Made by a program: the position numbers and the translations under genes. DNA of 50,343 bases from Escherichia phage vB_Eco_mar001J1, in sequence record NC_048204.1, one strand, 5' to 3'. Shown here in pieces: positions 1 through 50,343 of the stretch; position 1 is the stretch's first letter, and every line of letters starts with the position of its first letter. The notes below the pieces were generated by a model that was not told where the DNA came from, ran no database searches, and saw nothing but the letters and a program-made list of their open reading frames with translations.

Positions 1-127
1 AAAATTATGTCCAGCAAGTTTTTAGTAGTTCGCGTATATAATCATGACAACGAATCTTCTTCTGAAATCCCGACAATTTATGACAGGGATTTTGGATGGA
101 GTGAGCAATCGGCTGTTGAAAATGAGC
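1..127. repeat. Terminal direct duplication: 1-127 is identical to 50217-50343 (circular permutation or assembly overlap)
   Basis: Exact match of window start and end read directly from the sequence. Confidence 0.9.
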
Positions 128-3626: not shown

Positions 3627-3670
3627 ATTATGCCCGACACTAGGCCGGGCGTTTTAACAAAAAGTGCTAT
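3627..3670 (-). promoter_or_regulatory. Cassette promoter candidate: 20-mer ATAGCACTTTTTGTTAAAAC + 18 bp (GC hairpin) + CATAAT
   Basis: Motif overlaps stop of 3670..3927; 22 bp from TTGTTA to the hexamer; almost identical to inverted copy at 50143-50186. Confidence 0.55.
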
Positions 3671-3927
3671 TAGTGGATCATTCCGTGCTGAAAATTCCAC
3701 GAATCGACAAACTCTTGCATGTCATTTCTGATTTGTTCGTGCCATTTTTCAAGCGGGAGTTTTCTTGTCTCCTCAAAGCTCATATCTAATGCGCTTGAAA
3801 ATTCCCACGGATCGCAATCAATCATCTTTTTCACGTTAGGATTTTTATCAAGTGCATCGCACACCATAGAGCGAAATAACAACCATTCGCCAGTTTCATT
3901 TAAATAAACGCTTCTCTCTTTTTTCAT
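3670..3927 (-). CDS. Hypothetical protein (85 aa)
   Basis: Track ORF with ATG start; compact spacing to Dam gene. Confidence 0.55.
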   Translation of the reverse strand: MKKERSVYLNETGEWLLFRSMVCDALDKNPNVKKMIDCDPWEFSSALDMSFEETRKLPLEKWHEQIRNDMQEFVDSWNFQHGMIH

Positions 3928-4697: not shown

Positions 4698-4741
4698 ATT
4701 ATGGCGCAATCCATCGCGCCAGTTTTAACAAAAAGTGCTAT
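4698..4741 (-). promoter_or_regulatory. Cassette promoter candidate (20-mer, hairpin GGCGCGATGGATTGCGCC, CATAAT)
   Basis: Same geometry as other copies; overlaps stop of 4738..5157. Confidence 0.55.
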
Positions 4742-7154: not shown

Positions 7155-7186
7155 CTTAAACCTTTAAAAAATGCCATTTAGAGTAT

Positions 7187-7230
7187 ATAATAGACTCATT
7201 ACAATAAACTGTTTTAACAAAAAATGCTAT
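7187..7230 (-). promoter_or_regulatory. Cassette promoter candidate upstream of helicase gene (20-mer + 18 bp + TATTAT)
   Basis: ATAGCATTTTTTGTTAAAAC on coding strand, 22 bp from TTGTTA to TATTAT; divergent region also holds a plus-strand TATAAT at 7186-7191. Confidence 0.5.
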
Positions 7231-7241
7231 GAGGTGACTAG

Positions 7242-7718
7242 ATGAAAGATGCACGAATTGCAGTGTCTACGGGTGAGATCGACAAGCGCACTATTAACGG
7301 TAACAACGGAACGCGACGAGGTAAAGACAAAAAGCCACGAAAACACCGAACCGGATTTCTTATCCTGCGAGATGAGGTAAAAGCAAGCCTGAAATCTCGC
7401 CTTGACATTCTGATCGAGTATTACGGCGGTGTTCCTGCTATGGCTCGACGTCTACGCGTATCTCAGCAAGTCGTTAACCAGTGGCGAAAGCGTGGCATGA
7501 TTTCAGCCGCTGGAGCACAAAAGGTGCATAACGACTACAAATATAATGGGTGCAAAGGATACCGCGCATCATTTTGTCGTCCAGATCTGCGGTTTGATTC
7601 TAACGGCAAGCCTCTTACTACCCGTTGCGACAAATACGAAATGTTGCGCGTAGTCAAAAATTCAGACTACGAACCAGGCGGACGATTCTACAAAGGTGAT
7701 AACAGCACGAATAGCTAA
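7242..7718 (+). CDS. Cro/YdaS-family helix-turn-helix DNA-binding protein
   Basis: YGGVPAMARRLRVSQQVVNQWRKRGMIS segment; GAGGTGA RBS. Confidence 0.55.
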   Translation: MKDARIAVSTGEIDKRTINGNNGTRRGKDKKPRKHRTGFLILRDEVKASLKSRLDILIEYYGGVPAMARRLRVSQQVVNQWRKRGMISAAGAQKVHNDYKYNGCKGYRASFCRPDLRFDSNGKPLTTRCDKYEMLRVVKNSDYEPGGRFYKGDNSTNS

Positions 7719-8703: not shown

Positions 8704-8719
8704 AACTCCGCTAGTATTG

Positions 8720-8744
8720 CCCCGCTTATGCGGGGTTTTTTTTT
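8720..8744 (+). terminator. Rho-independent terminator
   Basis: CCCCGC ttat GCGGGG followed by a 9-nt T-run. Confidence 0.8.
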
Positions 8745-8777
8745 GCATTTGAAAATGCTATTATCTGCATTGTCATT

Positions 8778-8792
8778 AGCAAAAAGTGCTAT
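8778..8792 (+). repeat. Partial inverted copy of cassette 20-mer (AGCAAAAAGTGCTAT) directly 5' of tail-fibre RBS
   Basis: Reverse complement of the ATAGCACTTTTTG core, abutting AGGAGG. Confidence 0.45.
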
Positions 8793-8809
8793 TTAGGAGG
8801 ATTTTACAA

Positions 8810-11419
8810 ATGGCAATTTACAGACAAGGCCAAGCGTCTATGGACGCGCAAGGTTATGTAACTGGTTACGACACAAAATGGCGTGAGCAATTAACCTTGA
8901 TTCGCCCAGGTGCGACAATATTTTTTATTGACGCCCCTTTTCAGGCGGCGGTAATCAGTGAGGTTATTAGTGATACGCAAATCCGCGCCATCACAACTGG
9001 CGGATCTGAAATTGCGCGAAGCAATTACATCATTTTACTGCATGACTCGATCACTGTTGACGGTCTGGCGCAAGATGTAGCTGAAACGCTGCGCTACTAT
9101 CAAAGCAAGGAAACGCAGATAGAGGAAGCAATTGAATTTTTCAGGAACTTTGATCTGCAAAAGCTGATTGACTTACGTGATGAAACAGTGAGAAATGCGG
9201 CATCAGCAGCACAAAGCGAACAAAACGCGCAAACATGGGCTGGTCAATCTTTTAATCATGCTGAATCAGCAAAAGGCTACATGCAACAAACGCAACAGAT
9301 CAAAGATTCAGCGGTAGCTGAAATTAACTCGGCGCGAGATAAGGGTGTGCTGACTGTAAACCAGACTAAAGATCAAGCTGTTGTTGAAATGAATCAGATT
9401 AAAAGCGACACATCGTCGCTAAAAAATCAGGCGATTGAGGCTAAAACAGGCGCAGAAAGTGCGCGAGATCAGGCTGCTAACCATTCAGCCAACGCATTGC
9501 AGCAAGCAAACCGCGCCGAAATGGAAGCTGATAGAGCGCATCAAGCGGTTGTAGGTTATCAGGGCTGGAAATACGAAAGAACTGTAAACGCTCCAGCGGG
9601 TGCGGAAGATGCAAAATATTACCCTGTGATCTTCCAAGAAAAGAACGTTGGTGATATGACTAAATTAGGCGTTTTCTTCCAGATCTCAACTAGTAATAGG
9701 AATGGTGATTATCCTTATAATTCAGCGTCATTTGCTGGCTATGCTCGTACTTCTGGATGGTCTGACGGCGTTGATAGCGTTTATGGTAATTTCACCATCT
9801 ATCAGAAAGATGAAAGAACTATTGATTCTATTTTGATGCCAGCGAAAGCAACACAAAAGGCGTTTGCAGTTTACATTCGAGGCGGCGCATTTCCTGTTAG
9901 CATTCACTGTGAAAGCAATGTTGATGTTGTTGTCCCAACATCAGATTATGCGCCAGATGGTTTTGTTGAAAACGCAACAGTTTTTAAGTTTGGTGCGACA
10001 GATCCTGCCGCTGAATGTACAGAAGTAAGGGCAATGGTTTTAACTAACACAGGATTCTATGCGATTAATGATTATGTTATCCGCGATATTCTTTTGTTTA
10101 GGGATGGTCTTGGATTGGGTGAGAGACAAACACCAAGATTTTCCGAACTAGATCTTGTTCGTCAATATGCTGGAGCTGCTGAGCTTAGTGGAATCTTGAA
10201 TTTACACGCAAAGGGTGATGATGGTGTTTCTCGGGGTTATTCTCGGGTATACGCTGAAAAGCAAGGCGGATTATGGAAAACAATAATACATACAGCAAAC
10301 AATGAAGGAGACAAGCACGGATACCTGCAATTTGATGAAAACTCAAAGTTATCAGGTCTAAATCATGTTGAAATCAATGGAACTGGTGGGCTTTACTCTA
10401 ACGGGTGGATTACTGCAAAACAGGCAATGCGAGTTGGCTGCGGAACTGCCGAAGGAGGTAATAAAGATATTTACCTGACAAACGCATCAGGAGATGGTGG
10501 AGCTTATGGATGGGTAAACCTTCTACAAGGCAACTGGTACGGTGGATTCTGGCAATTTGGCGCTGTAAGAGGCGGCGCTGCTGATATAGCCCATGTAAAA
10601 GTATTGATTAATAATCAAGGATCTGACGTTAAAGAGTTTAGATTCCACAATGATTACGGTGGATACATGACTGCGCAGCGTGGTTTTAATGGTCAGTGTG
10701 TACAAGGCGCATGGGGTCTTGAATGGGATCACATGGGGGCGCCATACTACGCAAACTCAGTTACAAACAATGACTCTGGTTGGAGTCCTGTTGTTTCTGG
10801 TGGCTCTTTATCAACTGGCGGTTATCATATGCGAGTTGGGCTTGGTGTTGCATCAAACGGAAATGCCGCGTGGCCTGATGTAGCGCTAAAGTTAAATGGT
10901 GATGGTCGTTCTCATCGTGCTTATCATTTTACATATGATGGTGACATTACTACATGGGAGCAAGGTTTCGGCGGAGGTGCTTTTATTTTCGCAAAAAACC
11001 CAACGTCCGATCGTGATTTGAAACACGACATTAAATACACAGACGGAAAGGAAAGCTACGATCGCGTAATGCAATGGTTGCCTGCTATGTTTAAATATAA
11101 CGGATCTGATGTTCAACGTTTTGGCCTGATAGCTCAAGATCTGTTAAAAATCGATCCACAATATGTAAAGCTAGTTCCAGGCTCGCCGGTATTTGAGGAT
11201 GTGATTGGAGTTGATGAAAATGGTGAGGAATACATTGATCGTCAGATTGAAACTGACAGAAATGATGACACATTGGCGCTAGATAGCAATGTTATGCTAA
11301 CAGATATGGCTTGCGCTATGGTCTACATGGGGGGAAAAATTGAGAAAATGGAGAAAGAGATAGATGATCTAAGAAAAGCGGTAGCGAAATTAATCAACAA
11401 TCCAACAGATACAGACTAA
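8810..11419 (+). CDS. Side tail fibre with C-terminal intramolecular chaperone (peptidase S74-like) domain
   Basis: Gln/Ala-rich coiled N-terminal region, long fibre-like body, C-terminal segment typical of autocleaving chaperone domains; AGGAGG RBS. Confidence 0.7.
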   Translation: MAIYRQGQASMDAQGYVTGYDTKWREQLTLIRPGATIFFIDAPFQAAVISEVISDTQIRAITTGGSEIARSNYIILLHDSITVDGLAQDVAETLRYYQSKETQIEEAIEFFRNFDLQKLIDLRDETVRNAASAAQSEQNAQTWAGQSFNHAESAKGYMQQTQQIKDSAVAEINSARDKGVLTVNQTKDQAVVEMNQIKSDTSSLKNQAIEAKTGAESARDQAANHSANALQQANRAEMEADRAHQAVVGYQGWKYERTVNAPAGAEDAKYYPVIFQEKNVGDMTKLGVFFQISTSNRNGDYPYNSASFAGYARTSGWSDGVDSVYGNFTIYQKDERTIDSILMPAKATQKAFAVYIRGGAFPVSIHCESNVDVVVPTSDYAPDGFVENATVFKFGATDPAAECTEVRAMVLTNTGFYAINDYVIRDILLFRDGLGLGERQTPRFSELDLVRQYAGAAELSGILNLHAKGDDGVSRGYSRVYAEKQGGLWKTIIHTANNEGDKHGYLQFDENSKLSGLNHVEINGTGGLYSNGWITAKQAMRVGCGTAEGGNKDIYLTNASGDGGAYGWVNLLQGNWYGGFWQFGAVRGGAADIAHVKVLINNQGSDVKEFRFHNDYGGYMTAQRGFNGQCVQGAWGLEWDHMGAPYYANSVTNNDSGWSPVVSGGSLSTGGYHMRVGLGVASNGNAAWPDVALKLNGDGRSHRAYHFTYDGDITTWEQGFGGGAFIFAKNPTSDRDLKHDIKYTDGKESYDRVMQWLPAMFKYNGSDVQRFGLIAQDLLKIDPQYVKLVPGSPVFEDVIGVDENGEEYIDRQIETDRNDDTLALDSNVMLTDMACAMVYMGGKIEKMEKEIDDLRKAVAKLINNPTDTD

Positions 11420-14152: not shown

Positions 14153-14195
14153 GTAGCACTTTTTGCTAAACGCCGCTTGTCGGATCGTGTATAGT
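14153..14195 (+). promoter_or_regulatory. Cassette promoter variant (TAGCACTTTTTGCTAAAC, TATAGT)
   Basis: One-base shorter A-run; TATAGT 21 bp after TTGCTA; upstream of lipoprotein gene. Confidence 0.45.
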
Positions 14196-14776: not shown

Positions 14777-15391
14777 ATGTACGGGATGAGTATAAAAAAA
14801 TCAGACGGATCGTTATGGTTAAGTCCAGATTTCACTCCAGTTAATCTAATTGATCGGGCAGTAATATCTGCTAATACCGGAACCGTTTTTACTTCGTCAA
14901 TTCCTGTTGATAGGGTATGTTTTTTCTTTGTTAGATTGACTGCTAAATCATACATATCATTTACGCAATTTAACAATGGTGGAAGGCACGCAATAAGAAT
15001 TGATAGATCTGATAATCAAGGGGAGGTTATTGTTTATGCTTTTAGTAACATGGTGACTCCTCCAGGTAGTCACGGCATAGCGTTTTATAACGCTCATGGT
15101 GAAATGGTTTATCATGGAAAAATGAGGCCGCTTGATGCAAAGCAAGTTGGTGTGAGCGGGATCGCGTTTGATGTTAACCTGGGCTACCCTTGCGCAATAA
15201 TGCCATCACTAACAGCGTTAAACTCTGTACCTAATCCGGCTTTAGGTGGATTTATGATTTTTGAGTCTCAAGCTGCCGCGTATGGTAACGGGATCTACTC
15301 TTTTTCCAGGCAGGTTGCACAAACCCCTGGACCTGTTGGTATTTACACCGCCTCATCTGTTTTGGTTATAAATGCATCACACTATGATTAA
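14777..15391 (+). CDS. Hypothetical protein (204 aa), possible receptor-binding protein
   Basis: Track ORF starts at TTG; first ATG is 14777; position next to J and lipoprotein. Confidence 0.4.
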   Translation: MYGMSIKKSDGSLWLSPDFTPVNLIDRAVISANTGTVFTSSIPVDRVCFFFVRLTAKSYISFTQFNNGGRHAIRIDRSDNQGEVIVYAFSNMVTPPGSHGIAFYNAHGEMVYHGKMRPLDAKQVGVSGIAFDVNLGYPCAIMPSLTALNSVPNPALGGFMIFESQAAAYGNGIYSFSRQVAQTPGPVGIYTASSVLVINASHYD

Positions 15392-18400: not shown

Positions 18401-19000
18401 TGAAGATGTGCTATCTGGAGTCAGTCGCTTGACTCTGATTAAAACGCGCTCCTCAAACTTAGGAAGATCAATCCTTCTGCTGCGGTCATATCCTGATCTC
18501 GTCTTGCCGTCAATTACATCTCTCATAACCTCGTTATAAGAACCGCCATCAACAGCCATATCTACGGCATATTGAACCCTTACGCCAACAAGATCGCCGT
18601 TATCCTCCTGCTTCATGCCAACTGGCATCAGAATCTTGATTCTGATTGCAGAAAGATTTTTGTTTGTCACAGATATAACATAAGGATTGTCTGCTGTAAT
18701 ATCTCGCGAAACTGTCACCTCGCTTGATGTGTCAGTAAACCCCTGGATGTAATCTTGCGTCTGCGTACCTGGTCGATATTCAGCCGTAACTCCCTCGTAG
18801 TTAACAGTGCCATCGCTGGCAATAACCGGAACATCATCAAGATAAAGATCGCGCAACGTGAAATTTGGATCGCACTCGCCATCAGATACAGCAAGCAAAA
18901 CTTTAATCTTATTTATCGAGATCAGGTTATCTTCCATCTCTTTTGGCACGTAGGGCTTTTGACCGCCCCCTTTACTGCCACTTATCATATATTTAGCCAT
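15422..19000 (-). CDS. J: Central tail fibre / host specificity protein J
   Basis: N-terminal and body similarity to lambda gpJ (SGSKGGG..., VPSNYDP...SWDGTFK), fibronectin-like region; start set at MAKY. Confidence 0.85.
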   Translation of the reverse strand: MAKYMISGSKGGGQKPYVPKEMEDNLISINKIKVLLAVSDGECDPNFTLRDLYLDDVPVIASDGTVNYEGVTAEYRPGTQTQDYIQGFTDTSSEVTVSRDITADNPYVISVTNKNLSAIRIKILMPVGMKQEDNGDLVGVRVQYAVDMAVDGGSYNEVMRDVIDGKTRSGYDRSRRIDLPKFEERVLIRVKRLTPDSTSSKVTDKIKLQSYAEVVDAKFRYPLTGLVFVEFDSELFPTQIPNISIKKKWKIINVPSNYDPISREYHGSWDGTFKKAWSNNPAWVLYDLVTNQRYGLDQRELGIQIDKWSLYEAGVYCDQKVPDGKGGTEPRYLCDVVIQNQVEAYQLIRDICSIFRGMSFWNGESLSIVIDKPRDPSYVFTNENVINGDFQYTTASEKSMYTQCNVTFDDEQNMYQQDVEGVFDTEAALRFGYNPTSITAIGCTRRSEANRRGRWVLKTNLRSTTVNFATGLEGMIPSIGDVIAIADNFQSSNLTLNLSGRVMEVSGLQVFVPFKVDARPGDFIIINKPDGKPVKRTISKVSADGKTIELNIGFGFDVKPDTVFAIDRTDLALQQYVVTTISKGDDENEFTYSITAVEYDPNKYDEIDYGVNIDDRPTSIVQPDMMVAPENVQISSYSRVVQGVSVETMVVSWDKVPYASLYEMQWRKGDGNWLNTPQTANKEIEVEGIYSGNYQVRVRSVSASGNTSPWSKIATATLTGKVGEPGAPINLTASDNEVFGIRVKWGMPEGSGDTAYIELHQSPDGTVENSSLLTLIPYPQYEYWHSTLPAGQVVWYRIRSVDRIGNVSGWTDFVRGMASDDVESVLGDILDKIFDTEAGQEIKENAIDSANKIKDQAQSIIQNALANDADVKWTRVQNGKRKAEYGHALELIATETEARVTQIEELRASIDEDIVSSIKTVQEAIANESETRATQVQQLDSKFTKEIDGVKRDTAASIGEVRQTIANESEARAQAVQQLDAKFTKEINDLDGVIKTEVEADISEVKQAIANETEARVQADQALTAKFGDVESALAQKLDSWANVDSVGAKYAMKLGLTYKGQKYSAGMIMQLSQSSQGLISQILFDANRFAIMTSSTGGTFTLPFVVENNQVFINSLLVKNGSITNAMIGNVIQSNNFVQNQQGWRLDKNGIFENYGSTPGEGATKFTNEGLKVKDANGVLRVEVGRITGSW

Positions 19001-19571: not shown

Positions 19572-19615
19572 ATTGTAAAGCGAAAATCCGTTTTCGCTTT
19601 AACATATTGTGCTAT
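19572..19615 (-). promoter_or_regulatory. Cassette promoter variant (AAATAGCACAATATGTTAAAG, TACAAT)
   Basis: 22 bp between ATGTTA and TACAAT; overlaps stop of tail gene I. Confidence 0.45.
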
Positions 19616-25470: not shown

Positions 25471-25490
25471 ATAGCACTTTTTGTTAAAAG
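25471..25490 (+). repeat. Inverted cassette 20-mer immediately 5' of the chaperone G RBS
   Basis: ATAGCACTTTTTGTTAAAAG reads on plus strand while flanking genes are on minus; TAGATT lies 22 bp downstream on plus. Confidence 0.5.
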
Positions 25491-25532
25491 TGGAATTGAT
25501 TTATTTGATAGATTGATTTTACAGGAATGAAA

Positions 25533-25557
25533 AAAGGGGCGCAACGCCCCTTGTTTT
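25533..25557. terminator. Bidirectional stem-loop after the tail tube gene
   Basis: GGGGCGC a ACGCCCC flanked by A-run and T-run. Confidence 0.65.
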
Positions 25558-28160: not shown

Positions 28161-28195
28161 ATAAATAAAAAAAAGGGGAACCCTTAAGGCTCCCC
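28161..28195 (-). terminator. Strong terminator directly after the major capsid gene
   Basis: GGGGAGCC ttaa GGGTTCCCC followed by an 8-nt T-run. Confidence 0.65.
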
Positions 28196-28206: not shown

Positions 28207-29178
28207 TTACTCAGCTTTTTTCAAGCCGGTAATGAGCACCATCGTAAACGGACGATAAATCGTAAGGCCAGTACACTTGGAAGTGCAAGGAACCTTGAAA
28301 TGTAGGTCTTTTGGCTGCGCCGGAAGCATGTTAAACGCTTCTGGAATCTCAATGCTCATGTTCATTGGATCTTTTTCGTAAACCAAGCAACCTTTCGTAC
28401 CTTTGCCGTCAATATCCTCAAGCTCTGCGATAGAGTCGATAGTGATACCGCCGTTTTGCTTCTGGAAGTATTCCAGATAACTTTCAGTGGTATTTTCCAT
28501 TCGAACCGTCAGGACTTTGCGCATGGACGGCGGGATCAGGATGTTAGTCGCGCGGTGCTGGCCTTTGGTCACTTCCTCGATCGTTTCGATTGCAGCCTCC
28601 AGTTCATCGCTTGCTACCTGCGGGAATTTGGTATTGCCGTCATTGCTCATCCAGCCTTTAGAAACAATTTTCGTAAGGTTAGGATGATCGAAAACGGAAA
28701 CGATCTTGTGAGGCTTGGAACCCTTGAACACCAGGAAGTTAATCAACTGATCATGTGCATTTTGCGCAGCGTTAGCCTTGCGAGTTGACAGGCTCTTGCC
28801 AGTTCGCTGACCTGTTTTAATCTCATCAATGGAGATCAGATAAGCGTTACCCAGGCGGAACACTTTGCCAAACTCAGAAGTCATCAACGCGTCCACAGTC
28901 GGCAGATCATCGGTGTAGTCGGCGATAATTTTCGCATAGCCAACCTTATCAAAAGTCTGATATTCGAAAGTCTTGTCAGTATCAGAAAGCTCGTTTGTTA
29001 CAGGGAATACACGAAGCGCGGAACCTGCCGGATACTCTTTCTCGTATGCGTTAGAGCGGATCTTGTGTAGCTCTTGAGCGGTCCAAATACCCATATCAGA
29101 AGCGTCGGACTTAACACCCTGAATCTGCAAATGATTTGCTACAATAGTAGCATCTAATTCATCATATTTTTTAGCCAT
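28207..29178 (-). CDS. Major capsid protein
   Basis: 323 aa in the expected position; strong GGAGG RBS; own promoter and downstream terminator. Confidence 0.7.
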   Translation of the reverse strand: MAKKYDELDATIVANHLQIQGVKSDASDMGIWTAQELHKIRSNAYEKEYPAGSALRVFPVTNELSDTDKTFEYQTFDKVGYAKIIADYTDDLPTVDALMTSEFGKVFRLGNAYLISIDEIKTGQRTGKSLSTRKANAAQNAHDQLINFLVFKGSKPHKIVSVFDHPNLTKIVSKGWMSNDGNTKFPQVASDELEAAIETIEEVTKGQHRATNILIPPSMRKVLTVRMENTTESYLEYFQKQNGGITIDSIAELEDIDGKGTKGCLVYEKDPMNMSIEIPEAFNMLPAQPKDLHFKVPCTSKCTGLTIYRPFTMVLITGLKKAE

Positions 29179-29219
29179 TTTGTTTCCTCCATAAAAGGCC
29201 GTTACATTTAACGGCCTAG

Positions 29220-29247
29220 ATGATAGCACTTTTTGTTAAAGCGTCAA
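29220..29247 (-). promoter_or_regulatory. Sigma70-type promoter for capsid gene (TTGACG, 16-bp spacer, extended -10 TGcTATCAT)
   Basis: The spacer and extended -10 are the inverted cassette 20-mer (plus 29223-29241); 5'-UTR hairpin GGCCGTTAAATGTAACGGCC follows. Confidence 0.55.
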
Positions 29248-29259
29248 AGCGTTTTTATG

Positions 29260-30273
29260 TTATTCAGGATCGGTGATGGTTAGTCTTTGCTGACCTTTAA
29301 CGCCAGAACCATCAGCAGCGGTCCAGATAACATCAACCTCGCCAGCGGCGATAGTAGTTACTAGTCCAGTACCAGGATCTACAGATGCAAAATCACCACT
29401 TGACAAAGACCAAGAACCGGATTTATTTGTAGCACCTTCTGGAGCAACGACAACGCTCGCCTGAACGGCTTCACCAACAAGTGCAGAATTTTTCTCAAGG
29501 CTTACGGTTGCACTAGCGACGCTAACAACAGCTTTTTCGAATTGATAAACAATCGTGGCCTTAGTCTTGCTTCCATCGTTAGCAGTCCAATTTACGTTTA
29601 CACTACCGAATGCATCACTACCAACAGGAGTTAGAATACCTGTATCGGCATCAATAGTCGCAATGTTTACAGCATCAACAGACCAAACACCAGTTTTATC
29701 GGTGGCGTTGCCAGGCTCTACTGTGATACTGCATTTTACAGGAGCATTGTTTGGCTGCGGACTCTCCTTGTCAGTGTTAATTGTTGCAGACTCTACCAGC
29801 ACCACAGGAGGCGGAGGGGGTGGAACGATGAGAGCATTTTGCTTCACCTGAACCTCAATAATGTGACCGTCTTCGTGCTTAACAAAGCCACCAGCAAAGG
29901 TCCAGCCAACATAATCATCTACGCCAGTTACTACTCCTCCAACACCGATTTTTAGTTTTGAGAATGATTTCGGGGCTTCACTAAGAGAAGTAAGCGCCCA
30001 CACCCGACCGTGAGAAACGACGTTACACACCTCTCCGTCGAGAATTTTACCGCTCAGGTGCTCATATTGGGAACGAAAAGCGATGCCGTAAGGAGTTTCA
30101 CCATCAGAAATCGCCGTCACAACCCTCATTCCATCCACTATTCCGACAACCCGAACCGCTGATCCAAACTCAATATCACCTTGAGCAACACAAGCGCCAT
30201 CAATGTTATAGGTTGAAGTATCAGAGAGATTGCCAGGACATGCATAGTGCAGCATTAAATTTTCATAAGCCAT
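29260..30273 (-). CDS. Head decoration protein paralogue with C-terminal Ig-like extension
   Basis: N-terminal region paralogous to 30334..30813 (TYNIDGACV, PYGIAFRS, HGRVWALTS, AGGFVKH), then PPPPPP linker and beta-rich repeats. Confidence 0.55.
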   Translation of the reverse strand: MAYENLMLHYACPGNLSDTSTYNIDGACVAQGDIEFGSAVRVVGIVDGMRVVTAISDGETPYGIAFRSQYEHLSGKILDGEVCNVVSHGRVWALTSLSEAPKSFSKLKIGVGGVVTGVDDYVGWTFAGGFVKHEDGHIIEVQVKQNALIVPPPPPPVVLVESATINTDKESPQPNNAPVKCSITVEPGNATDKTGVWSVDAVNIATIDADTGILTPVGSDAFGSVNVNWTANDGSKTKATIVYQFEKAVVSVASATVSLEKNSALVGEAVQASVVVAPEGATNKSGSWSLSSGDFASVDPGTGLVTTIAAGEVDVIWTAADGSGVKGQQRLTITDPE

Positions 30274-34047: not shown

Positions 34048-34069
34048 ACTTTTTAGCAATTAGTGCTAT
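34048..34069 (-). repeat. Degenerate cassette copy (TAAATAGCACTAATTGCTAAAAAG) with adjacent TATAAT
   Basis: Overlaps the large terminase stop codon; spacing unlike the canonical cassette. Confidence 0.35.
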
Positions 34070-35637
34070 TTATTGCGTAGACCAGCCAGCTTTTTCATCC
34101 TTGCCACCGGATCATCTGCCAAGTTCATTTCGACGTTAACAGCATCAACTATATTATCGACAATATCATCATGGGGATGAGAATCATCAAAAGTGAATGC
34201 TGCAACCTCTGCCAGTATCTCAGGCAGCATGGGGTGATTTTCTGGCAGCGCCACACGTCCGGCCCTCATTACTGGCGCGGCGTCCATTGCTCGCGTCACC
34301 TTGTCATTGCTTCGCTGAACGGGATTTATATCAATCGGGATCTTCTTTTTGGCCCCCTGAATCAAACCCGTGCCGCTGGCCTTATCCTCAATATGGATAC
34401 GTCGCAAGCTGCCACACTCCTTATTGCGCTTCCAGCACTGGTTAACGAAGGCAATAAAATTTAATTCAAGATCCGGCGCTTCCCACTTTCCGCGAATGCC
34501 ATCAATGAAGTAAACGCGATTCTTATACATACCCCAATAACAAAAAACTGAATAGTCATTAAGCTCTCCGGCCTTCTGCGCGGTATCTCCAGTGATAAAT
34601 GTGTATTCAAAGCGATCCGGTTTAGGAAGTGCGCATTTTTCGCCGCTGCCGTAATACTGGAACCACTCTGTTTTAAACACATTCCCGCCCAGCGCGATTG
34701 GTTGCTGTTGGTATTGGCTGGCGAACGTGTAAGGATCTGCATTGCGCAATGCAAGCAATTCCTCCGCGCTTTCCTTTGCAGGCCAAAATGAATAATGAGC
34801 AACGCCATCTATCATCACTGGCTTACTGGACAAAACATCGCGATCAAACTCTGGCTTTAACCAATCAGGAAGCGTTTCCCGATAATCCTCGGTAACGAGC
34901 GCCGGAATGCTCACGACCTTAAATTTGATGCCGCCCATACCGCCATTCGTCATAAACCAAGTCGAATCATTGACGTGTAGCCGCTGCTGAACCATTACAA
35001 TGGGCGTGGTGTCTTTCATTCGACGAGATCGCACGGTGTTTTTTAGGCGCATGTGTCCGGCTTCGCGCTTCGTCTTTGATAGCTGATCGTCTGGTTTGTC
35101 TGGATCGTCGAGAACCAGCATACCAGTGAAGCCATCATCCATGTAACCACCACGTAATCCCGTTACCTGTCCGCCAATGGATCGTGAATTGAGTTGCAGC
35201 CAGACTTTACCATCACGATTAAGCACAGCTATATCTTTTGCGCTGGCCTTTGCCATCTTGCAAGGCCATAGCTCTTGCCATTCCGGCGAACCGATAATCT
35301 CCCTTACTCGAATGCTGTTTTGCTGCACAAGTCCATCACTAAACGAAAGGTTTAAATTTCGCACCTTCTTGCTTTTCAGCATTGCGTAAACTGGCATGTG
35401 GATCGAGAATATTTCCGTTTTTGACGAACCAGGAGCAACGTTGAAAATCACGTTCTGCTCCTTGCCACTAATCACATCCTCAAGGCATCGGCAGATATAT
35501 GATAAATGCCAGTTACCTAAAAACTTTTGCCCCTGTAGCAAGCTAAACCAAATGCGGATCATCTTTTCGAATGAGTGGGCGCTCATTTCTTTAATGGCGC
35601 GTTTCTGCGCCGCTGTTAAGTCCTCCCAAATAATCAT
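34066..35637 (-). CDS. Terminase large subunit
   Basis: 523 aa with ATPase-like N-terminal region; position between small terminase and portal. Confidence 0.75.
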   Translation of the reverse strand: MIIWEDLTAAQKRAIKEMSAHSFEKMIRIWFSLLQGQKFLGNWHLSYICRCLEDVISGKEQNVIFNVAPGSSKTEIFSIHMPVYAMLKSKKVRNLNLSFSDGLVQQNSIRVREIIGSPEWQELWPCKMAKASAKDIAVLNRDGKVWLQLNSRSIGGQVTGLRGGYMDDGFTGMLVLDDPDKPDDQLSKTKREAGHMRLKNTVRSRRMKDTTPIVMVQQRLHVNDSTWFMTNGGMGGIKFKVVSIPALVTEDYRETLPDWLKPEFDRDVLSSKPVMIDGVAHYSFWPAKESAEELLALRNADPYTFASQYQQQPIALGGNVFKTEWFQYYGSGEKCALPKPDRFEYTFITGDTAQKAGELNDYSVFCYWGMYKNRVYFIDGIRGKWEAPDLELNFIAFVNQCWKRNKECGSLRRIHIEDKASGTGLIQGAKKKIPIDINPVQRSNDKVTRAMDAAPVMRAGRVALPENHPMLPEILAEVAAFTFDDSHPHDDIVDNIVDAVNVEMNLADDPVARMKKLAGLRNK

Positions 35638-38836: not shown

Positions 38837-38880
38837 ACTTTATCAAATGCCCTTGCGGAAGTTTTAACAAAAAGTGCTAT
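38837..38880 (-). promoter_or_regulatory. Cassette promoter candidate (20-mer, hairpin, TAAAGT)
   Basis: Overlaps stop of 38880..39170; 22-bp spacing. Confidence 0.5.
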
Positions 38881-40130: not shown

Positions 40131-40174
40131 ATTATAGCGGGGCCGATAACCCCGCGTTTAGCAATTCGTGCTAT
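40131..40174 (-). promoter_or_regulatory. Cassette promoter variant (AAATAGCACGAATTGCTAAAC, hairpin, perfect TATAAT)
   Basis: 22 bp between TTGCTA and TATAAT; overlaps stop of kinase-like gene. Confidence 0.5.
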
Positions 40175-41633: not shown

Positions 41634-41677
41634 ACTATACCGCAAGCCCGTTGAGACGTTTTAACAAAAAGTGCTAT
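41634..41677 (-). promoter_or_regulatory. Cassette promoter candidate (20-mer, hairpin GGGCTTGCGGTATAGTAAGCCC, TATAGT)
   Basis: 22-bp spacing; overlaps stop of 41678..41863. Confidence 0.5.
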
Positions 41678-42096: not shown

Positions 42097-42140
42097 ATTA
42101 TGCCAGGCTTTGCGCCTGGCGTTTTAACAAAAAGTGCTAT
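42097..42140 (-). promoter_or_regulatory. Cassette promoter candidate (20-mer, hairpin CCAGGCGCAAAGCCTGG, CATAAT, TCGAAACGA leader)
   Basis: Consensus copy; overlaps stop of lipoprotein gene. Confidence 0.55.
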
Positions 42141-43475: not shown

Positions 43476-43519
43476 ATAGCACTTTTTGTTAAAACTCAGG
43501 CCGTCTGATCGGGTACATT
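43476..43519 (+). promoter_or_regulatory. Cassette promoter candidate for the rightward early operon (20-mer, TACATT, TCGAAACGAA leader)
   Basis: 22 bp between TTGTTA and TACATT. Confidence 0.55.
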
Positions 43520-44779: not shown

Positions 44780-44823
44780 ATAGCACTTTTTGTTAAAAAC
44801 GATGCGCTGCTGATTGTTATAGT
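44780..44823 (+). promoter_or_regulatory. Cassette promoter candidate (20-mer + TGtTATAGT)
   Basis: 22-bp spacing; the TATAGT has an upstream TG (extended -10). Confidence 0.5.
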
Positions 44824-46281: not shown

Positions 46282-46992
46282 ATGTATAAAGGTTTAATAT
46301 TCTCACTATTTGATGGATCTGGTAAGGCCGTTAAAGACTGGGCTGATAATGGCTATAAGTGCATTTGCTTTAATGCTGACGGTGGCGATCACGGTGATTA
46401 CCAGTCAGTGCGCATACAGCATGAGAATATCGAATACGTTAACGTCTGGATTGATGATGCTTTTTATGTTAAGGCAATCAATAATGAGTGGGGCAATCCT
46501 GATTTTATTATGGCCTTCCCACCATGCACCGACCTTGCAAATAGCGGATCTCGCCATTGGGCCAAAAAACGCCTTGAGAATCCATCGTTCCAGGATGAGG
46601 CCGCCGACACTTGCAGAATAGCGGCTGATATAGGTGATTATTTCGGTGTTCCTTACATGATCGAAAATCCGGTTGGCAAGTTGTCAACGTTATGGCGTAA
46701 GCCTAATTATACGTTCCATCCGTGCGATTACGCTGGCTATCTGCCGGAAGATGATAAACACCCCGACTTCCCTGATATTATTCCGGCGCGGGATCGCTAC
46801 TTTAAGAAAACGTGTCTCTGGACTGGCAACGGCTTTGTTATTCCTCCACGCGCTTTAATCCTGCCGAAAGAGGAAGACAAAGATAATCCAGGCTGGGCCA
46901 AAACTGGCGGCAAGTCATCGCGCACAAAGATGATCCGCTCCCTCACTCCGCGCGGCTTTGCTCGCGCCGTCTTTGAGTCAAACTCAAAATAG
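46282..46992 (+). CDS. DNA cytosine-C5 methyltransferase-like protein, unusually short with PCT in place of PCQ
   Basis: Motif I LFDGSG, motif IV AFPPCTDLA, motif VI ENPVGK; only 236 aa, no obvious target-recognition domain. Confidence 0.55.
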   Translation: MYKGLIFSLFDGSGKAVKDWADNGYKCICFNADGGDHGDYQSVRIQHENIEYVNVWIDDAFYVKAINNEWGNPDFIMAFPPCTDLANSGSRHWAKKRLENPSFQDEAADTCRIAADIGDYFGVPYMIENPVGKLSTLWRKPNYTFHPCDYAGYLPEDDKHPDFPDIIPARDRYFKKTCLWTGNGFVIPPRALILPKEEDKDNPGWAKTGGKSSRTKMIRSLTPRGFARAVFESNSK

Positions 46993-47032
46993 CACTTTTT
47001 GTTAAAAGCCAGGTGTAAAAACCTGGCATAAT
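46989..47032 (+). promoter_or_regulatory. Cassette promoter candidate (20-mer, hairpin CCAGGTGTAAAAACCTGG, CATAAT, CCGAAACGAAAGGAG leader)
   Basis: 22-bp spacing; overlaps TAG stop of the methyltransferase-like gene. Confidence 0.55.
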
Positions 47033-47776: not shown

Positions 47777-47984
47777 ATATCGCTATAAGGTTACTAATTC
47801 AGCAACAAAAACCTTCAAGCCTGGCGATATAGTCAGGCCCATCAAAAAAACTGCGGTAGGTTGGCTGATTGGTTTTTCATATCATAAGGCGCTTTACTTT
47901 ACGTTTAAGGATGGGATTGCAGGAGAATGCTACAGCGACAGCCAGCCTGATCGACTTCTGGTTGCAATAGAGCGGATCAAATAG
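47763..47984 (+). CDS. Hypothetical protein (73 aa)
   Basis: Start at MIKTEYRYK overlapping the HNH gene stop. Confidence 0.45.
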   Translation: MIKTEYRYKVTNSATKTFKPGDIVRPIKKTAVGWLIGFSYHKALYFTFKDGIAGECYSDSQPDRLLVAIERIK

Positions 47985-48024
47985 CACTTTTTGACAAAAC
48001 GGGGTAGTATTGGGCAGTTAAAAT
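47981..48024 (+). promoter_or_regulatory. Cassette promoter variant (ATAGCACTTTTTGACAAAAC, TAAAAT)
   Basis: TTGACA replaces TTGTTA; same 22-bp spacing. Confidence 0.5.
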
Positions 48025-50025: not shown

Positions 50026-50146
50026 GGATTTTATTCATGCTTTACTTACGCTACTTTATTCAGATATGCGCGCTTTTAGCACCACTGAACATGTTTTATG
50101 CAATGATGATGGTGTATTACTGGTTACGGTAAAGCGTATGGAATAG
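49952..50146 (+). CDS. Hypothetical protein (64 aa) overlapping the preceding gene in another frame
   Basis: TAG stop is embedded in the cassette 20-mer like other cassette-preceding genes. Confidence 0.4.
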   Translation: MMNCSRQKLIDKFLKHCAVNSISHEDFIHALLTLLYSDMRAFSTTEHVLCNDDGVLLVTVKRME

Positions 50147-50186
50147 CATTTTTTGTTAAAACGCCCGGCCTAGTGTCGGGTATATT
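50143..50186 (+). promoter_or_regulatory. Cassette promoter candidate (20-mer, hairpin GCCCGGCCTAGTGTCGGG, TATATT, TCGAAACGAAAC leader)
   Basis: Drives the gene at 7..231 across the circular junction; near-identical to the inverted copy at 3627-3670. Confidence 0.55.
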
Positions 50187-50343
50187 TGTTTCATCGAAAC
50201 GAAACAACCAAAAGGTAAAATTATGTCCAGCAAGTTTTTAGTAGTTCGCGTATATAATCATGACAACGAATCTTCTTCTGAAATCCCGACAATTTATGAC
50301 AGGGATTTTGGATGGAGTGAGCAATCGGCTGTTGAAAATGAGC

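What the first reader, a model, noticed from the sequence alone, without database searches (positions are those of the whole stretch)
29220..29247. Major capsid gene promoter built around an inverted cassette copy
On the minus strand TTGACG (29242-29247), a 16-bp spacer and TGcTATCAT (29220-29228) form a strong sigma70-like promoter with extended -10 about 40 bp upstream of the capsid start. A 5'-UTR hairpin and GGAGG RBS follow. The spacer and extended -10 are the reverse complement of the cassette 20-mer (plus 29223-29241). A similar partial inverted copy abuts the tail-fibre RBS (8778-8792). The same sequence therefore appears in opposite orientation at early versus late genes, which hints at a shared regulator with orientation-dependent output or sense/antisense RNA complementarity between early and late leaders.
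Basis: partly seen in the sequence, partly recalled or inferred. Interest (0 to 1): 0.6.

Follow-up and report, generated by a model that had tools for sequence, protein, structure and literature searches.

The report
Conserved capsid promoter with embedded operator
The major capsid gene of this T1-like coliphage has its own host-type promoter, conserved across the phage family; its spacer is an inverted copy of the family's already-described intergenic repeat and its predicted start site lies inside the upstream gene's terminator hairpin, so this is largely ordinary phage gene control that points to a still unidentified regulator.

Summary
The window is the whole genome of Escherichia phage vB_Eco_mar001J1 (Drexlerviridae, Warwickvirus). 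On the minus strand, TTGACG (29247-29242), a 16-nt spacer and TGcTATCAT (29228-29220) lie 41 nt before the capsid ATG. Plus-strand 29223-29241 is an inverted copy of the intergenic repeat ATAGCACnnnnnGYTAAAA.

The consensus match alone is weak evidence: 2 such sites in the genome against 0.8 expected. Conservation is the strong evidence. All 77 relatives with readable upstream sequence, down to 55% capsid identity, keep TTGnnn, a spacer of 16 nt in 73 (15 or 17 in 4), TGn and TATnnT, plus an upstream A-tract. The spacer is as constrained as the hexamers and varies at the same positions as the repeat elsewhere.

The hairpin is probably not a 5'-UTR element. Its stem starts 1-4 nt after the -10 in every lineage, so the predicted start falls inside the 5' arm. 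It behaves as the upstream gene's terminator, which promoter-initiated RNA escapes.

The repeat was already published for phage TLS, where this copy is listed as DR7 and the hairpin as T35, but neither the inversion nor a capsid promoter was noted. The repeat is a near-palindrome sitting 19 bp upstream of -10 hexamers at about 15 promoters that lack a -35. I infer an operator for a phage regulator, possibly Cro-like gp66. Antisense-RNA pairing is unlikely for the capsid. No TSS data exist.

The parts
29251..29258 (-). A-tract (ATAAAAAC; the A5 run lies at about -43 to -39), a candidate UP-element proximal subsite
   Evidence: Read, coordinates. The AAAAA run is at least 90% conserved in 45 distinct relatives' promoters. 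The UP-element function is inferred.
29242..29247 (-). -35 hexamer TTGACG (5 of 6 to consensus)
   Evidence: TTG is present in all 77 relatives; alleles are TTGACG, TTGCAC, TTGAAC and TTGACC, though the pattern used to find these promoters required TTG, so its invariance is not independent evidence.
29223..29241 (+). Inverted copy of the family repeat (ATAGCACTTTTTGTTAAAG). It fills the whole 16-nt spacer plus the TAT of the -10. Its core is the near-palindrome TAGCA-N5-TGTTA.
   Evidence: 0 mismatches to the query, 18 of 19 to the consensus. Spacer information is 1.53 bits per position, against about 0.7 in the flanks. Its variable positions mirror those of the cassette copies (Spearman 0.77; part of this is built into the search patterns).
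29220..29228 (-). Extended -10: TG (29228-29227), c, TATCAT (29225-29220)
   Evidence: TG and TATnnT are found in all 77 relatives.
29212..29214 (-). Predicted transcription start, 6-8 nt after the -10, within a conserved YGT
   Evidence: Inferred from sigma70 geometry and not mapped. A conserved C/T-G-T lies at nt 6-8 after the -10 in 19 distinct relatives. CGTTAAG sits at the same position in Weberviruses, which have no hairpin.
29196..29217 (-). Hairpin aGGCCGTTA/aatg/TAACGGCCt with a U-tract (UUUUAU, 29196-29191). Likely the intrinsic terminator of upstream gene gp11, overlapping the capsid promoter's discriminator and +1.
   Evidence: dG is -14.4 kcal/mol, z = -3.7. Compensatory CG-UA and GC-AU changes are seen. 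The orthologous hairpins are annotated as terminators in Sip and TLS T35.
29186..29190 (-). Shine-Dalgarno GGAGG, 7 nt before the ATG
28207..29178 (-). Major capsid protein gene (gp10, hsbB)
   Evidence: RefSeq annotation.
28175..28195 (-). Strong terminator directly after the capsid gene, making the capsid gene a promoter-gene-terminator unit
   Evidence: 9-bp stem followed by T8.
25471..25489 (+). Second inverted repeat copy (19 of 19), abutting the SD of the tail chaperone gene tfmA
   Evidence: Conserved at the same site in T1 (18832-18850).
8774..8792 (-). Third inverted repeat copy (17 of 19), abutting the SD of the tail-fibre gene
   Evidence: An inverted copy occupies the same site in T1 (34902-34920).
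7212..7230 (-). Repeat copy shared by two divergent promoters. It is in sense orientation, 19 bp upstream of the helicase -10 (7192-7187). Relative to the Cro-like regulator gene gp66 it is inverted and abuts the SD.
   Evidence: The arrangement is conserved upstream of the regulator gene in 31 of 32 relatives.

Best explanation
The site is the dedicated promoter of the major capsid gene, read by host sigma70 RNA polymerase. It consists of an A-tract, a -35 hexamer, a 16-bp spacer, TGn and a -10 hexamer.

The promoter is nested with the terminator of the upstream gene. The G+C-rich base of the terminator stem is encoded between the -10 and +1. RNA arriving from upstream therefore folds the full hairpin and stops at the U-tract. 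RNA initiated at the capsid promoter lacks most of the 5' arm and reads on into the capsid gene. Together with the strong terminator after the gene, this makes the capsid gene a self-contained, highly expressed unit.

The spacer is not arbitrary. It is a conserved, inverted copy of the family-wide repeat, whose core is the near-palindrome TAGCA-N5-TG(C/T)TA. The orientation places the GTGCTAT end so that it doubles as TGn plus the first half of the -10.

I infer that the repeat is the operator of a dimeric DNA-binding protein, most likely the phage's Cro-like HTH protein gp66. At about 15 early or middle promoters that lack a -35, the repeat sits centred near -42 and would help recruit polymerase. 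At the capsid promoter it is centred near -18, and in the leaders of gp66, the tail chaperone gene and the tail-fibre gene it lies downstream of the start. In those positions the same protein would hinder transcription.

What is shown: the sequence elements, their conservation, and the stem covariation. What is inferred: promoter activity, the start site, the terminator-escape logic, protein binding, and its sign.
For: **Promoter**
- The elements are verified.
- This is the only intergenic site in the genome with at least 10 of 12 plus TG.
- All 77 relatives whose capsid-upstream sequence was readable, including T1 and 55%-identity Weberviruses, have TTGnnn, TGn and TATnnT. The spacer is 16 nt in 73, 17 nt in 3 and 15 nt in 1. 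All have an upstream A-tract.

**Terminator nesting**
- The stem starts 1-4 nt after the -10 in all 19 distinct hairpin-bearing sequences.
- dG falls from about -11 to -16 kcal/mol to about -0.5 to -5 if RNA starts at nt 6-7.
- CG-UA (12 against 6) and GC-AU compensations occur.
- 17 of 19 hairpins are followed by at least 3 T.
- Weberviruses lack the hairpin and instead carry a terminator upstream of the same promoter, a complementary distribution.
- The orthologous hairpins were annotated as terminators by others.

**Spacer as a functional repeat copy**
- Spacer information is 1.53 bits (1.87 outside Webervirus), against 1.47 for the -35, 1.50 for the -10 and about 0.7 for the flanks.
- The same positions vary, with the same alternative bases, as in cassette copies (Spearman 0.77, though part of this is built into the search patterns).

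**Repeat as a promoter element elsewhere**
- 28 of 48 copies in three genomes have TAnnnT exactly 19 bp downstream, against a background of 1.5% per position. Most of the rest have CATAAT-like hexamers or spacings of 18 or 20 bp.

**Candidate protein**
- gp66 has a Cro/YdaS-like HTH.
- A repeat copy lies between its promoter and its SD in 31 of 32 relatives.
Against: - No transcription start, transcript-end or protein-binding data exist for any T1-like phage in the literature I could search.
- The genome-wide consensus statistic is weak: 2 sites against 0.8 expected.
- Two hairpin lineages have a poor or absent U-tract (the L025 and L038 types), so termination cannot be the hairpin's only conserved role.
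- In some Weberviruses the half-site nearest the -10 is TGATAT rather than TGCTAT. This keeps the extended -10 but breaks the repeat arm, which suggests that promoter function rather than the operator is the stronger constraint there.
- Repression of a capsid promoter by a factor that activates earlier genes needs an unexplained late relief step.
- The link to gp66 is circumstantial.
Confidence: 0.55

Rival explanations
1. The hairpin is a 5'-UTR stabiliser of the capsid mRNA, and the inverted and sense repeat copies act as RNA, pairing between early and late transcripts.
For: The hairpin is stable and conserved in structure, and it persists in two lineages without a U-tract. In three other places (gp66, tail chaperone, tail fibre) the inverted copy lies immediately 5' of the SD and would be transcribed. 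19-nt perfect complements exist among the copies.
Against: The stem starts 1-4 nt after the -10 in every lineage, so an intact hairpin would need a start inside or directly after the -10. At the capsid gene and in the sense cassettes the repeat lies upstream of the predicted start, so it is not in the local primary transcript. Conserved arms with a variable A+T-rich centre in discrete classes fit a protein site better than a duplex (PMC11447400).
Confidence: 0.08
2. There is no functional promoter. The repeat copy is present for another reason, and its built-in TGCTAT plus a nearby TTG merely look like a promoter. The capsid gene is transcribed by read-through of a leaky hairpin.
For: The repeat intrinsically contains TGCTAT, so any inverted copy resembles an extended -10. 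The consensus match is not significant genome-wide. The TLS authors, using strict criteria, called no promoter here.
Against: Only the capsid copy combines TTG at exactly 16 bp, a T at -7 and an upstream A-tract. It does so in all 77 relatives, including Weberviruses in which the flanks and the repeat arm have changed. The other inverted copies lack a -35 and the -7 T in both T1 and this phage. A gene needed in hundreds of copies sits directly behind a terminator.
Confidence: 0.1
3. The promoter is real, but the repeat in its spacer has no protein partner. It is kept because it makes a good A+T-rich spacer and extended -10, and because recombination or gene conversion among repeat copies homogenises it. 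Under this view the repeats are recombination modules like T4-type PeSLs.
For: The cassettes sit at gene boundaries, often overlap stop codons and flank small or HNH genes. They combine a conserved motif, a stem-loop and a promoter, as PeSLs do (PMC4122927). The central 5 nt of the capsid copies fall into the same discrete classes (TTTTT or GAATY) as cassette copies, as gene conversion would produce.
Against: The fixed 19-bp distance to -10 hexamers at dozens of promoters lacking a -35 argues that the motif itself works in transcription. The arms are invariant while the centres drift. The copy in the regulator's leader is conserved in 31 of 32 relatives.
Confidence: 0.17
4. The repeat is bound by a host protein rather than a phage one, for example Lrp. 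Lrp's SELEX consensus YAGHAWATTWTDCTR matches TAGCACTTTTTGCTA at 13 of 15 positions, including both arms.
For: The consensus string is confirmed in PMC5554404. The match count is my own by-eye comparison. Early promoters must work before phage proteins exist.
Against: The GAATT-class copies match only 11 of 15. The consensus is degenerate. By my own recollection (not checked here), classical T1-resistance genetics point to fhuA and tonB, not lrp, and Lrp is scarce in rich medium, where T1 grows well. No test was run here.
Confidence: 0.07

Closest known systems
21-nt direct repeats of phage TLS, aaATAGCACnnnTTGnTAAAA (German, Kropinski et al., Phage 2024, PMC11447400). The authors also report them in T1, Rtp and Rogue1.
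   Same: It is the same sequence family. TLS DR7 (neg 15044..15024, atatagcattttttgttaaac) followed by T35 (15049..15069) is the ortholog of this exact site. The function was left open, with stoperators, enhancer sites and UP elements suggested.
   Different: The paper states that the repeats lie in the direction of transcription. It does not remark that DR7 is inverted, calls no capsid promoter, and does not report the 19-bp spacing to -10 hexamers, the palindromic core or the nesting with the terminator.
Extended -10 (TGnTATAAT) sigma70 promoters with UP-like A-tracts
   Same: TG at -15/-14, A at -11, T at -7, a 16-bp spacer, a TTG -35 and an A5 tract near -41.
   Different: The whole spacer is sequence-constrained, which is unusual for this class. 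The discriminator and +1 region form the base of a terminator stem.
Regulators whose output depends on operator position: lambda CI at OR (activates PRM from about -42, represses PR) and phi29 p4 (activates late A3, represses early A2b/A2c). This comparison rests on my own knowledge.
   Same: One operator sequence is placed either near -42 of promoters lacking a -35, or over or downstream of canonical promoters. A divergent pair (gp66 and helicase) shares one operator and has overlapping -10 regions.
   Different: No binding or activity data exist. The sites are single rather than cooperative arrays. The phage is virulent. The expected sign at the capsid promoter (repression) is hard to reconcile with a late gene.
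PeSLs, composite promoter/terminator cassettes of T4-like phages (PMC2839356, PMC4122927)
   Same: Short conserved intergenic modules combining a stem-loop terminator with a promoter, repeated many times and flanking small variable genes.
   Different: The sequence and layout differ: here the hairpin occupies the -35 position. A role in recombination was not tested. The capsid site is a different arrangement of the parts, with the repeat inside the promoter and the hairpin after the -10.
Mycobacteriophage L5 stoperators (Brown et al. 1997, cited in PMC11447400)
   Same: Many copies of a short asymmetric site in intergenic regions, with a consistent orientation relative to transcription.
   Different: Stoperators block elongation for a lysogenic repressor, whereas T1-like phages are virulent. 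Most copies here are positioned as promoter elements at a fixed distance from a -10 hexamer.

Membership tests
sigma70 promoter with extended -10 | -35 hexamer resembling TTGACA | tested here: met
   TTGACG, 5 of 6. TTG is present in all 77 relatives, but the pattern used to find their promoters required TTG.
sigma70 promoter with extended -10 | Spacer of 16-18 bp | tested here: met
   16 bp here. Among the 77 relatives it is 16 bp in 73, 17 bp in 3 and 15 bp in 1.
sigma70 promoter with extended -10 | TG at -15/-14, and a -10 hexamer with A at -11 and T at -7 | tested here: met
   TGcTATCAT. TG and TATnnT are present in all relatives.
sigma70 promoter with extended -10 | A primary transcript 5' end 6-8 nt downstream, or activity with sigma70 holoenzyme | not testable with these tools
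   No TSS or in-vitro data were found for any Drexlerviridae phage.
Intrinsic (rho-independent) terminator | G+C-rich stem-loop more stable than expected from composition | tested here: met
   A 9-bp stem, dG -14.4 kcal/mol, z = -3.7.
Intrinsic (rho-independent) terminator | U-tract immediately 3' of the stem | tested here: inconclusive
   UUUUAU here, which just missed the scan's rule of 5 T in 8. 17 of 19 relatives have at least 3 T, and 2 have a poor tract or none.
Intrinsic (rho-independent) terminator | Structure maintained by compensatory changes | tested here: met
   CG 12, UA 6, UG 1 at one pair; GC 12, AU 4 at another.
Intrinsic (rho-independent) terminator | Transcript 3' ends at the U-tract | not testable with these tools
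   No term-seq or equivalent data were found.
TLS-type 21-nt direct repeat (PMC11447400) | Match to aaATAGCACnnnTTGnTAAAA | tested here: met
   ATAGCACTTTTTGTTAAAG, 18 of 19 over the core. It corresponds to TLS DR7.
TLS-type 21-nt direct repeat (PMC11447400) | Oriented in the direction of transcription, about 76 nt upstream of a start codon | tested here: not met
   This copy is inverted relative to the capsid gene and lies 45-63 nt from its ATG. TLS DR7 is likewise on the opposite strand.
Repeat-type promoter cassette lacking a -35 (defined here) | A -10-like TAnnnT 19 bp downstream of the repeat, in the repeat's own orientation | tested here: not met
   The capsid copy has TATTCA (T1: TATACA; Sweeny: GTGCAA) at that position, with no T at -7. 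It is therefore not an antisense cassette promoter.
Operator of a dimeric HTH regulator | Dyad-symmetric core with conserved arms and a less conserved centre | tested here: met
   TAGCA-N5-TG(C/T)TA. The arms are invariant and the centre is A+T-rich and variable across three genomes.
Operator of a dimeric HTH regulator | Demonstrated specific protein binding | not testable with these tools
   Only circumstantial: the Cro-like gp66 carries a copy in its own leader in 31 of 32 relatives.

The most novel reading that the evidence does not exclude
One repeat-binding protein, perhaps the Cro-like gp66, runs the whole T1-family transcription programme through a single operator. From about -42 it switches on roughly 15 compact promoters whose -35 position is occupied by the previous gene's terminator hairpin. 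From positions over or just downstream of canonical promoters it throttles its own gene, the capsid gene, the tail chaperone and tape-measure unit, and the tail-fibre gene. At two places (gp66/helicase and the chaperone site) the operator sits between face-to-face promoters with overlapping or adjacent -10 regions and would act as a direction switch.
Probability: 0.25. Interest if true: 0.65.

Novelty: new member of a known kind. Interest (0 to 1): 0.4.

Why it matters
T1 is one of the classical coliphages, yet how it orders early and late transcription without its own polymerase or sigma factor is still unknown. The latest re-annotation of a relative found only three convincing sigma70 promoters and left the 21-nt repeat unexplained.

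This analysis adds three things:
- The repeat sits at a fixed 19 bp from -10 hexamers at promoters lacking a -35.
- It is a near-palindrome.
- It also forms the constrained spacer of a deeply conserved capsid promoter.

Together these turn a descriptive repeat into a concrete, testable hypothesis of a regulator and its operator, with a named candidate protein. The promoter-inside-terminator layout is also a compact insulation design that may be useful for annotating phage genomes and for engineering them.

Tried and rejected
- **sigma54 promoter.** TAGCAC-N5-GTTA superficially resembles TGGCAC-N5-TTGC. By my own reading, the GG/GC register is off by 2 and the conserved -10 hexamer lies 19 bp further on. 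Rejected.
- **OxyR, NAC, Fis, IHF, DnaA, ArcA, CRP and FNR consensus sequences.** Compared from memory only. None fits in spacing or arms. Not pursued.
- **Lrp.** The arms fit, and the consensus string was confirmed. No test was possible and the biology is unfavourable, so it is kept only as a low-probability rival.
- **Known RNA family for the hairpin.** Rfam gives only a sub-threshold RyhB hit (21 bits against a gathering score of 55, E = 0.24). Rejected.
- **The capsid repeat copy as an antisense cassette promoter.** There is no TAnnnT at 19 bp in any of three genomes. Rejected, although the chaperone copy does have one.
- **TTGTTA or TTGCTA inside the sense repeat as a -35.** The spacer would be 22 bp. 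Rejected.
- **Cruciform shortening of that spacer.** Not all cassettes have a dyad. Rejected.
- **MAFFT/RNAalifold on the hairpins.** Loops of different length were mis-aligned. I replaced this with an anchor-based pair count, whose script stopped with an index error after the four innermost pairs.
- **Literature.** Searches for the motif string, for Drexlerviridae promoters and for Drexlerviridae transcriptomes found only the TLS paper. The 2004 T1 genome paper is not held, so I could not check whether it predicted this promoter.
- **Distant gp66 relatives.** The search for relatives of gp66 with diverged operators returned only close Drexlerviridae, so no protein-operator co-variation test was possible.
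Full report
**Identity of the window**

A 3-kb query around the finding is 100% identical to Escherichia phage vB_Eco_mar001J1 (LR027388 / NC_048206; 50,343 bp; Drexlerviridae, Tempevirinae, Warwickvirus). The window is that genome rotated, and its first 127 nt equal its last 127 nt. The gene after the finding is the annotated major head protein (window 28207-29178, minus strand). The gene before it (29260-30273 as annotated) is a virion protein confirmed by mass spectrometry in the RefSeq record.

**Checking the observation**

Reading the minus strand and a pattern check confirm every element at the stated coordinates:
- TTGACG at 29247-29242.
- A 16-nt spacer.
- TG at 29228-29227.
- TATCAT at 29225-29220.
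- The hairpin aGGCCGTTA/aatg/TAACGGCCt at 29217-29196, followed by TTTAT.
- GGAGG at 29190-29186.
- ATG at 29178.

Plus-strand 29223-29241 is ATAGCACTTTTTGTTAAAG. This 19-mer family has 16 matches with up to 3 mismatches in the window, against 0.02 expected. A profile and a degenerate pattern add two more.

As a bare consensus match the promoter is not impressive. Promoter-like sites in the 8-kb neighbourhood are no more frequent than in shuffles. Genome-wide, 2 sites reach at least 10 of 12 plus TG, against 0.8 in random sequence. This one, however, is the only intergenic site of the two.

**Conservation is the real evidence for the promoter**

I fetched the capsid locus from 79 IMG/VR relatives and from phage T1.

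All 77 sequences with readable upstream DNA carry TTGnnn, TGn and TATnnT at the same place. The spacer is 16 nt in 73, 17 nt in 3 and 15 nt in 1. An A5 tract lies about 4 nt upstream of the -35. The set includes T1, which reads TTGACG-ctttaacaaaaagtgc-TATTAT. It also includes Klebsiella Weberviruses, whose capsid protein is only about 55% identical.

Across 45 distinct sequences, information per position is 1.47 bits for the -35, 1.50 for the -10, and about 0.7 for the 25 nt upstream and 20 nt downstream. The pattern used to find the promoters required TTG, TG and most of the -10, so those elements could not appear variable. The unconstrained evidence is their fixed position in every relative, the A-tract, and the spacer sequence. 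A dedicated sigma70-type capsid promoter is therefore well supported, although no start site has been mapped. I found no transcript mapping for any Drexlerviridae phage.

**The spacer is constrained like the repeat**

The spacer carries 1.53 bits per position (1.87 outside Webervirus), which is as much as the hexamers. Promoter spacers are normally free to vary.

Turned into repeat orientation, the capsid copies vary at the same positions and with the same alternative bases as the cassette copies:
- Position 7: C or T.
- Positions 8-10: TTT or GAA.
- Position 14: C or T.

The arms are invariant. The Spearman correlation of per-position information is 0.77. One caveat is that the cassette set was collected with a pattern that fixes several positions.

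One exception points the other way. Many Weberviruses have TGATAT instead of TGCTAT. This keeps the extended -10 but breaks the repeat arm.

**What the repeat is elsewhere**

In its own orientation, the repeat is followed at a fixed distance by a -10-like hexamer. Of 48 copies in this phage, T1 and Klebsiella phage Sweeny, 28 have TAnnnT exactly 19 bp downstream, against a background of 1.5% per position. Most others have CATAAT-type hexamers or spacings of 18 or 20 bp.

Seven nucleotides further on lies a conserved cATCGAAACGA-like sequence, followed by the RBS. No -35 is possible, because the 19 bp between the repeat and the -10 are variable, G+C-rich and usually form a hairpin. The T1 annotators called several of these hairpins terminators.

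The repeat is therefore centred near -42 of about 15 promoters that lack a -35 and serve early and replication genes. Its core is the near-palindrome TAGCA-N5-TG(C/T)TA, with an A+T-rich centre. This is the look of an operator for a dimeric protein, at the position typical of class II activators. That comparison rests on my own knowledge and is an inference.

**The hairpin**

The stem is stable (-14.4 kcal/mol, z = -3.7). It is maintained by compensatory changes: CG 12, UA 6 and UG 1 at one pair, and GC 12 and AU 4 at another.

In all 19 distinct hairpin-bearing relatives, the stem begins 1-4 nt after the -10. A conserved C/T-G-T lies at nt 6-8, where sigma70 polymerase would start. RNA starting there keeps only 4-5 weak pairs. 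The energy drops to -4.3 or -2.3 kcal/mol here, and to between -0.5 and -5 in relatives.

Several further observations fit a terminator:
- 17 of 19 hairpins are followed by at least 3 T.
- Weberviruses have no hairpin after the -10, but carry a classical terminator (GGGGCTTCGGCCCC followed by a T-run) just upstream of the same promoter. The two arrangements are complementary.
- The orthologous hairpins are annotated as terminators in phage Sip and in TLS (T35).

I conclude that the hairpin is the upstream gene's terminator, nested so that capsid-promoter transcripts escape it. It is not a 5'-UTR hairpin.

Two points count against a pure terminator role. Two lineages have lost the U-tract but kept the stem. 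The tract here is only UUUUAU, and the simple scan did not call it.

**The other inverted copies**

These are conserved at the same three late sites in T1: 15068-15086, 18832-18850 and 34902-34920. However, they are not good promoters themselves. They have no conserved -35, their hexamers are TATAAG or TATCAA and TATTTA (no T at -7), and a start from them would fall on or after the SD.

Instead, each lies in the leader of a nearby promoter-like site:
- **Tail fibre:** TGCTATTAT at 8756-8764, just after a terminator. This sequence is identical in Sweeny.
- **Chaperone:** TTGCGC (25544-25539, inside the terminator loop), 17 nt, TAAAAT (25521-25516). T1 has TTGCAC, 17 nt, TAAAAT at the same place.
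- **Cro-like regulator gp66:** TTTAAA, 17 nt, TATAAT (7163-7191), with the repeat at about +15 to +33, abutting the SD. This holds in 31 of 32 relatives.

The chaperone copy also has TAGATT (T1: TAAGAT) exactly 19 bp away in the antisense direction.

Every non-cassette copy therefore overlaps or follows a canonical-looking promoter, which is where a bound protein would hinder transcription. This unifies the data at the DNA level. An RNA-pairing model cannot include the capsid copy, which lies upstream of its own predicted start.

**Candidate protein**

gp66 (window 7242-7718) is the only annotated transcriptional regulator in the genome. It has a Cro/YdaS-type helix-turn-helix. The Pfam matches are below threshold (E = 1e-6 and 6e-4), PHROG 2856 is 'transcriptional regulator', and there are weak matches to two solved Cro-type proteins. 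It shares one repeat copy with the divergent helicase promoter, and the two -10 regions overlap. This evidence is circumstantial.

A host alternative is Lrp. Its consensus YAGHAWATTWTDCTR (confirmed) matches the T-class core at 13 of 15 positions. I consider this unlikely, and it is untested.

**Comparison with what is known**

The repeat itself is published. The 2024 TLS re-annotation (PMC11447400) reports a 21-nt direct repeat, aaATAGCACnnnTTGnTAAAA, with 18 intergenic copies. It describes them as lying 'in the direction of transcription' about 76 nt before start codons, notes them also in T1, Rtp and Rogue1, and leaves the function unknown.

Its supplementary table lists the ortholog of this very site as DR7, on the opposite strand, followed by terminator T35. 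The text does not note the inversion. Only three sigma70 promoters were called, and none of them is at the capsid gene.

The same paper says the T1 genome paper proposed late 'transcriptons' with RpoD promoters and perhaps enhancers. I could not read that paper, so a capsid promoter may already have been predicted for T1.

The closest functional analogues are:
- Extended -10 promoters.
- Regulators whose output depends on operator position (lambda CI, phi29 p4; my own knowledge).
- For the cassettes, the composite promoter/terminator PeSLs of T4-like phages.

**Verdict**

The promoter reading is supported by deep conservation. The hairpin is re-interpreted as a nested terminator. The 'shared regulator' idea is plausible and sharpened into a near-palindromic operator with a class II-like position elsewhere and gp66 as the candidate. 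The antisense-RNA idea is unlikely for this site.

The element is an orthologous member of features already catalogued in TLS and T1, with new connections between them. Interest is moderate, at 0.4.

My confidence in the separate claims is:

| Claim | Confidence |
|---|---|
| Functional capsid promoter | about 0.8 |
| Hairpin acts as a terminator that promoter transcripts bypass | about 0.6 |
| Repeat is a protein operator | about 0.55 |
| The protein is gp66 | about 0.3 |
| Binding at the capsid promoter is repressive | about 0.3 |

Noticed in passing
window repeat copies at 3652-3670(-), 4723-4741(-), 7212-7230(-), 14153-14171(+), 19597-19615(-), 38862-38880(-), 40156-40174(-), 41659-41677(-), 42122-42140(-), 43476-43494(+), 44780-44798(+), 46989-47007(+), 47981-47999(+), 50143-50161(+): Sense repeat copies form a compact promoter cassette. 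The order is: repeat, 19 bp of variable G+C-rich sequence (usually a hairpin, sitting where a -35 would be), a TAnnnT or CATAAT hexamer, then 7 nt on a conserved cATCGAAACGA-like start region and the RBS. The upstream gene's stop codon often overlaps the repeat (TAA-ATAG). The same architecture is present in T1 and in Klebsiella phage Sweeny.
   Followed up: partly
window 25509-25544 (with repeat 25471-25489): Two face-to-face promoter-like sites lie next to the bidirectional terminator after the major tail gene. One is a sense site with its -35 (TTGCGC, 25544-25539) inside the terminator loop and TAAAAT at 25521-25516. The other is an antisense cassette-type -10 (TAGATT, 25509-25514) exactly 19 bp from the repeat. 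Both are conserved in T1. They could make a short antisense RNA or act as a direction switch.
   Followed up: partly
window 8719-8810: The tail-fibre gene is preceded by, in order: a terminator (8719-8735 plus a T9 run), an extended -10 TGCTATTAT (8756-8764, which is itself a half-copy of the repeat and is identical in Sweeny), the inverted repeat (8774-8792, about +4 to +22 of the predicted transcript), and the SD (8796-8800).
   Followed up: partly
window 7155-7241: This is the divergent control region between the helicase gene (minus strand) and the Cro-like regulator gene gp66 (plus strand). The regulator's promoter-like site TTTAAA-17-TATAAT (7163-7191) and the helicase cassette -10 (7192-7187) overlap, and one repeat copy (7212-7230) serves both. 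The layout is conserved in 31 of 32 relatives, in T1 and in Sweeny. In TLS, one of only three called promoters (P57) sits next to repeat DR11, in what looks like the same layout.
   Followed up: partly
window 34051-34069 (-): A sense-oriented repeat copy (ATAGCACTAATTGCTAAAA) lies between the large terminase and portal genes. It has no -10 at 19 bp and is followed instead by a terminator (GGCTGGAtttttCCAGCC plus a T-run). It is a partial or decayed cassette in the late region.
   Followed up: no
window 19597-19615 (-): A diverged repeat copy (ATAGCACAATATGTTAAAG) with TACAAT exactly 19 bp downstream precedes an HNH endonuclease gene inserted in the tail operon. This suggests the cassette travels with mobile genes.
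   Followed up: no
window 1-127 and 50217-50343: The first 127 nt of the window are identical to the last 127 nt. Gene coordinates imply that about 127 nt fewer lie between the minor tail genes than in the GenBank record. This looks like a rotation or terminal-overlap artefact of how the sequence was laid out, not biology.
   Followed up: partly
repeat core, e.g. window 14154-14168: The 15-bp core TAGCACTTTTTGCTA matches the E. coli Lrp SELEX consensus YAGHAWATTWTDCTR at 13 of 15 positions, including both arms. The consensus was confirmed in PMC5554404. This is a resemblance only and was not tested.
   Followed up: no
window 3652-3700 (-) and 50143-50190 (+): Two cassettes on opposite strands near the two ends of the window share the same variable hairpin (cgcccggcctagtgtcggg) as well as the repeat. 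They are recent duplicates of one another in inverted orientation.
   Followed up: no
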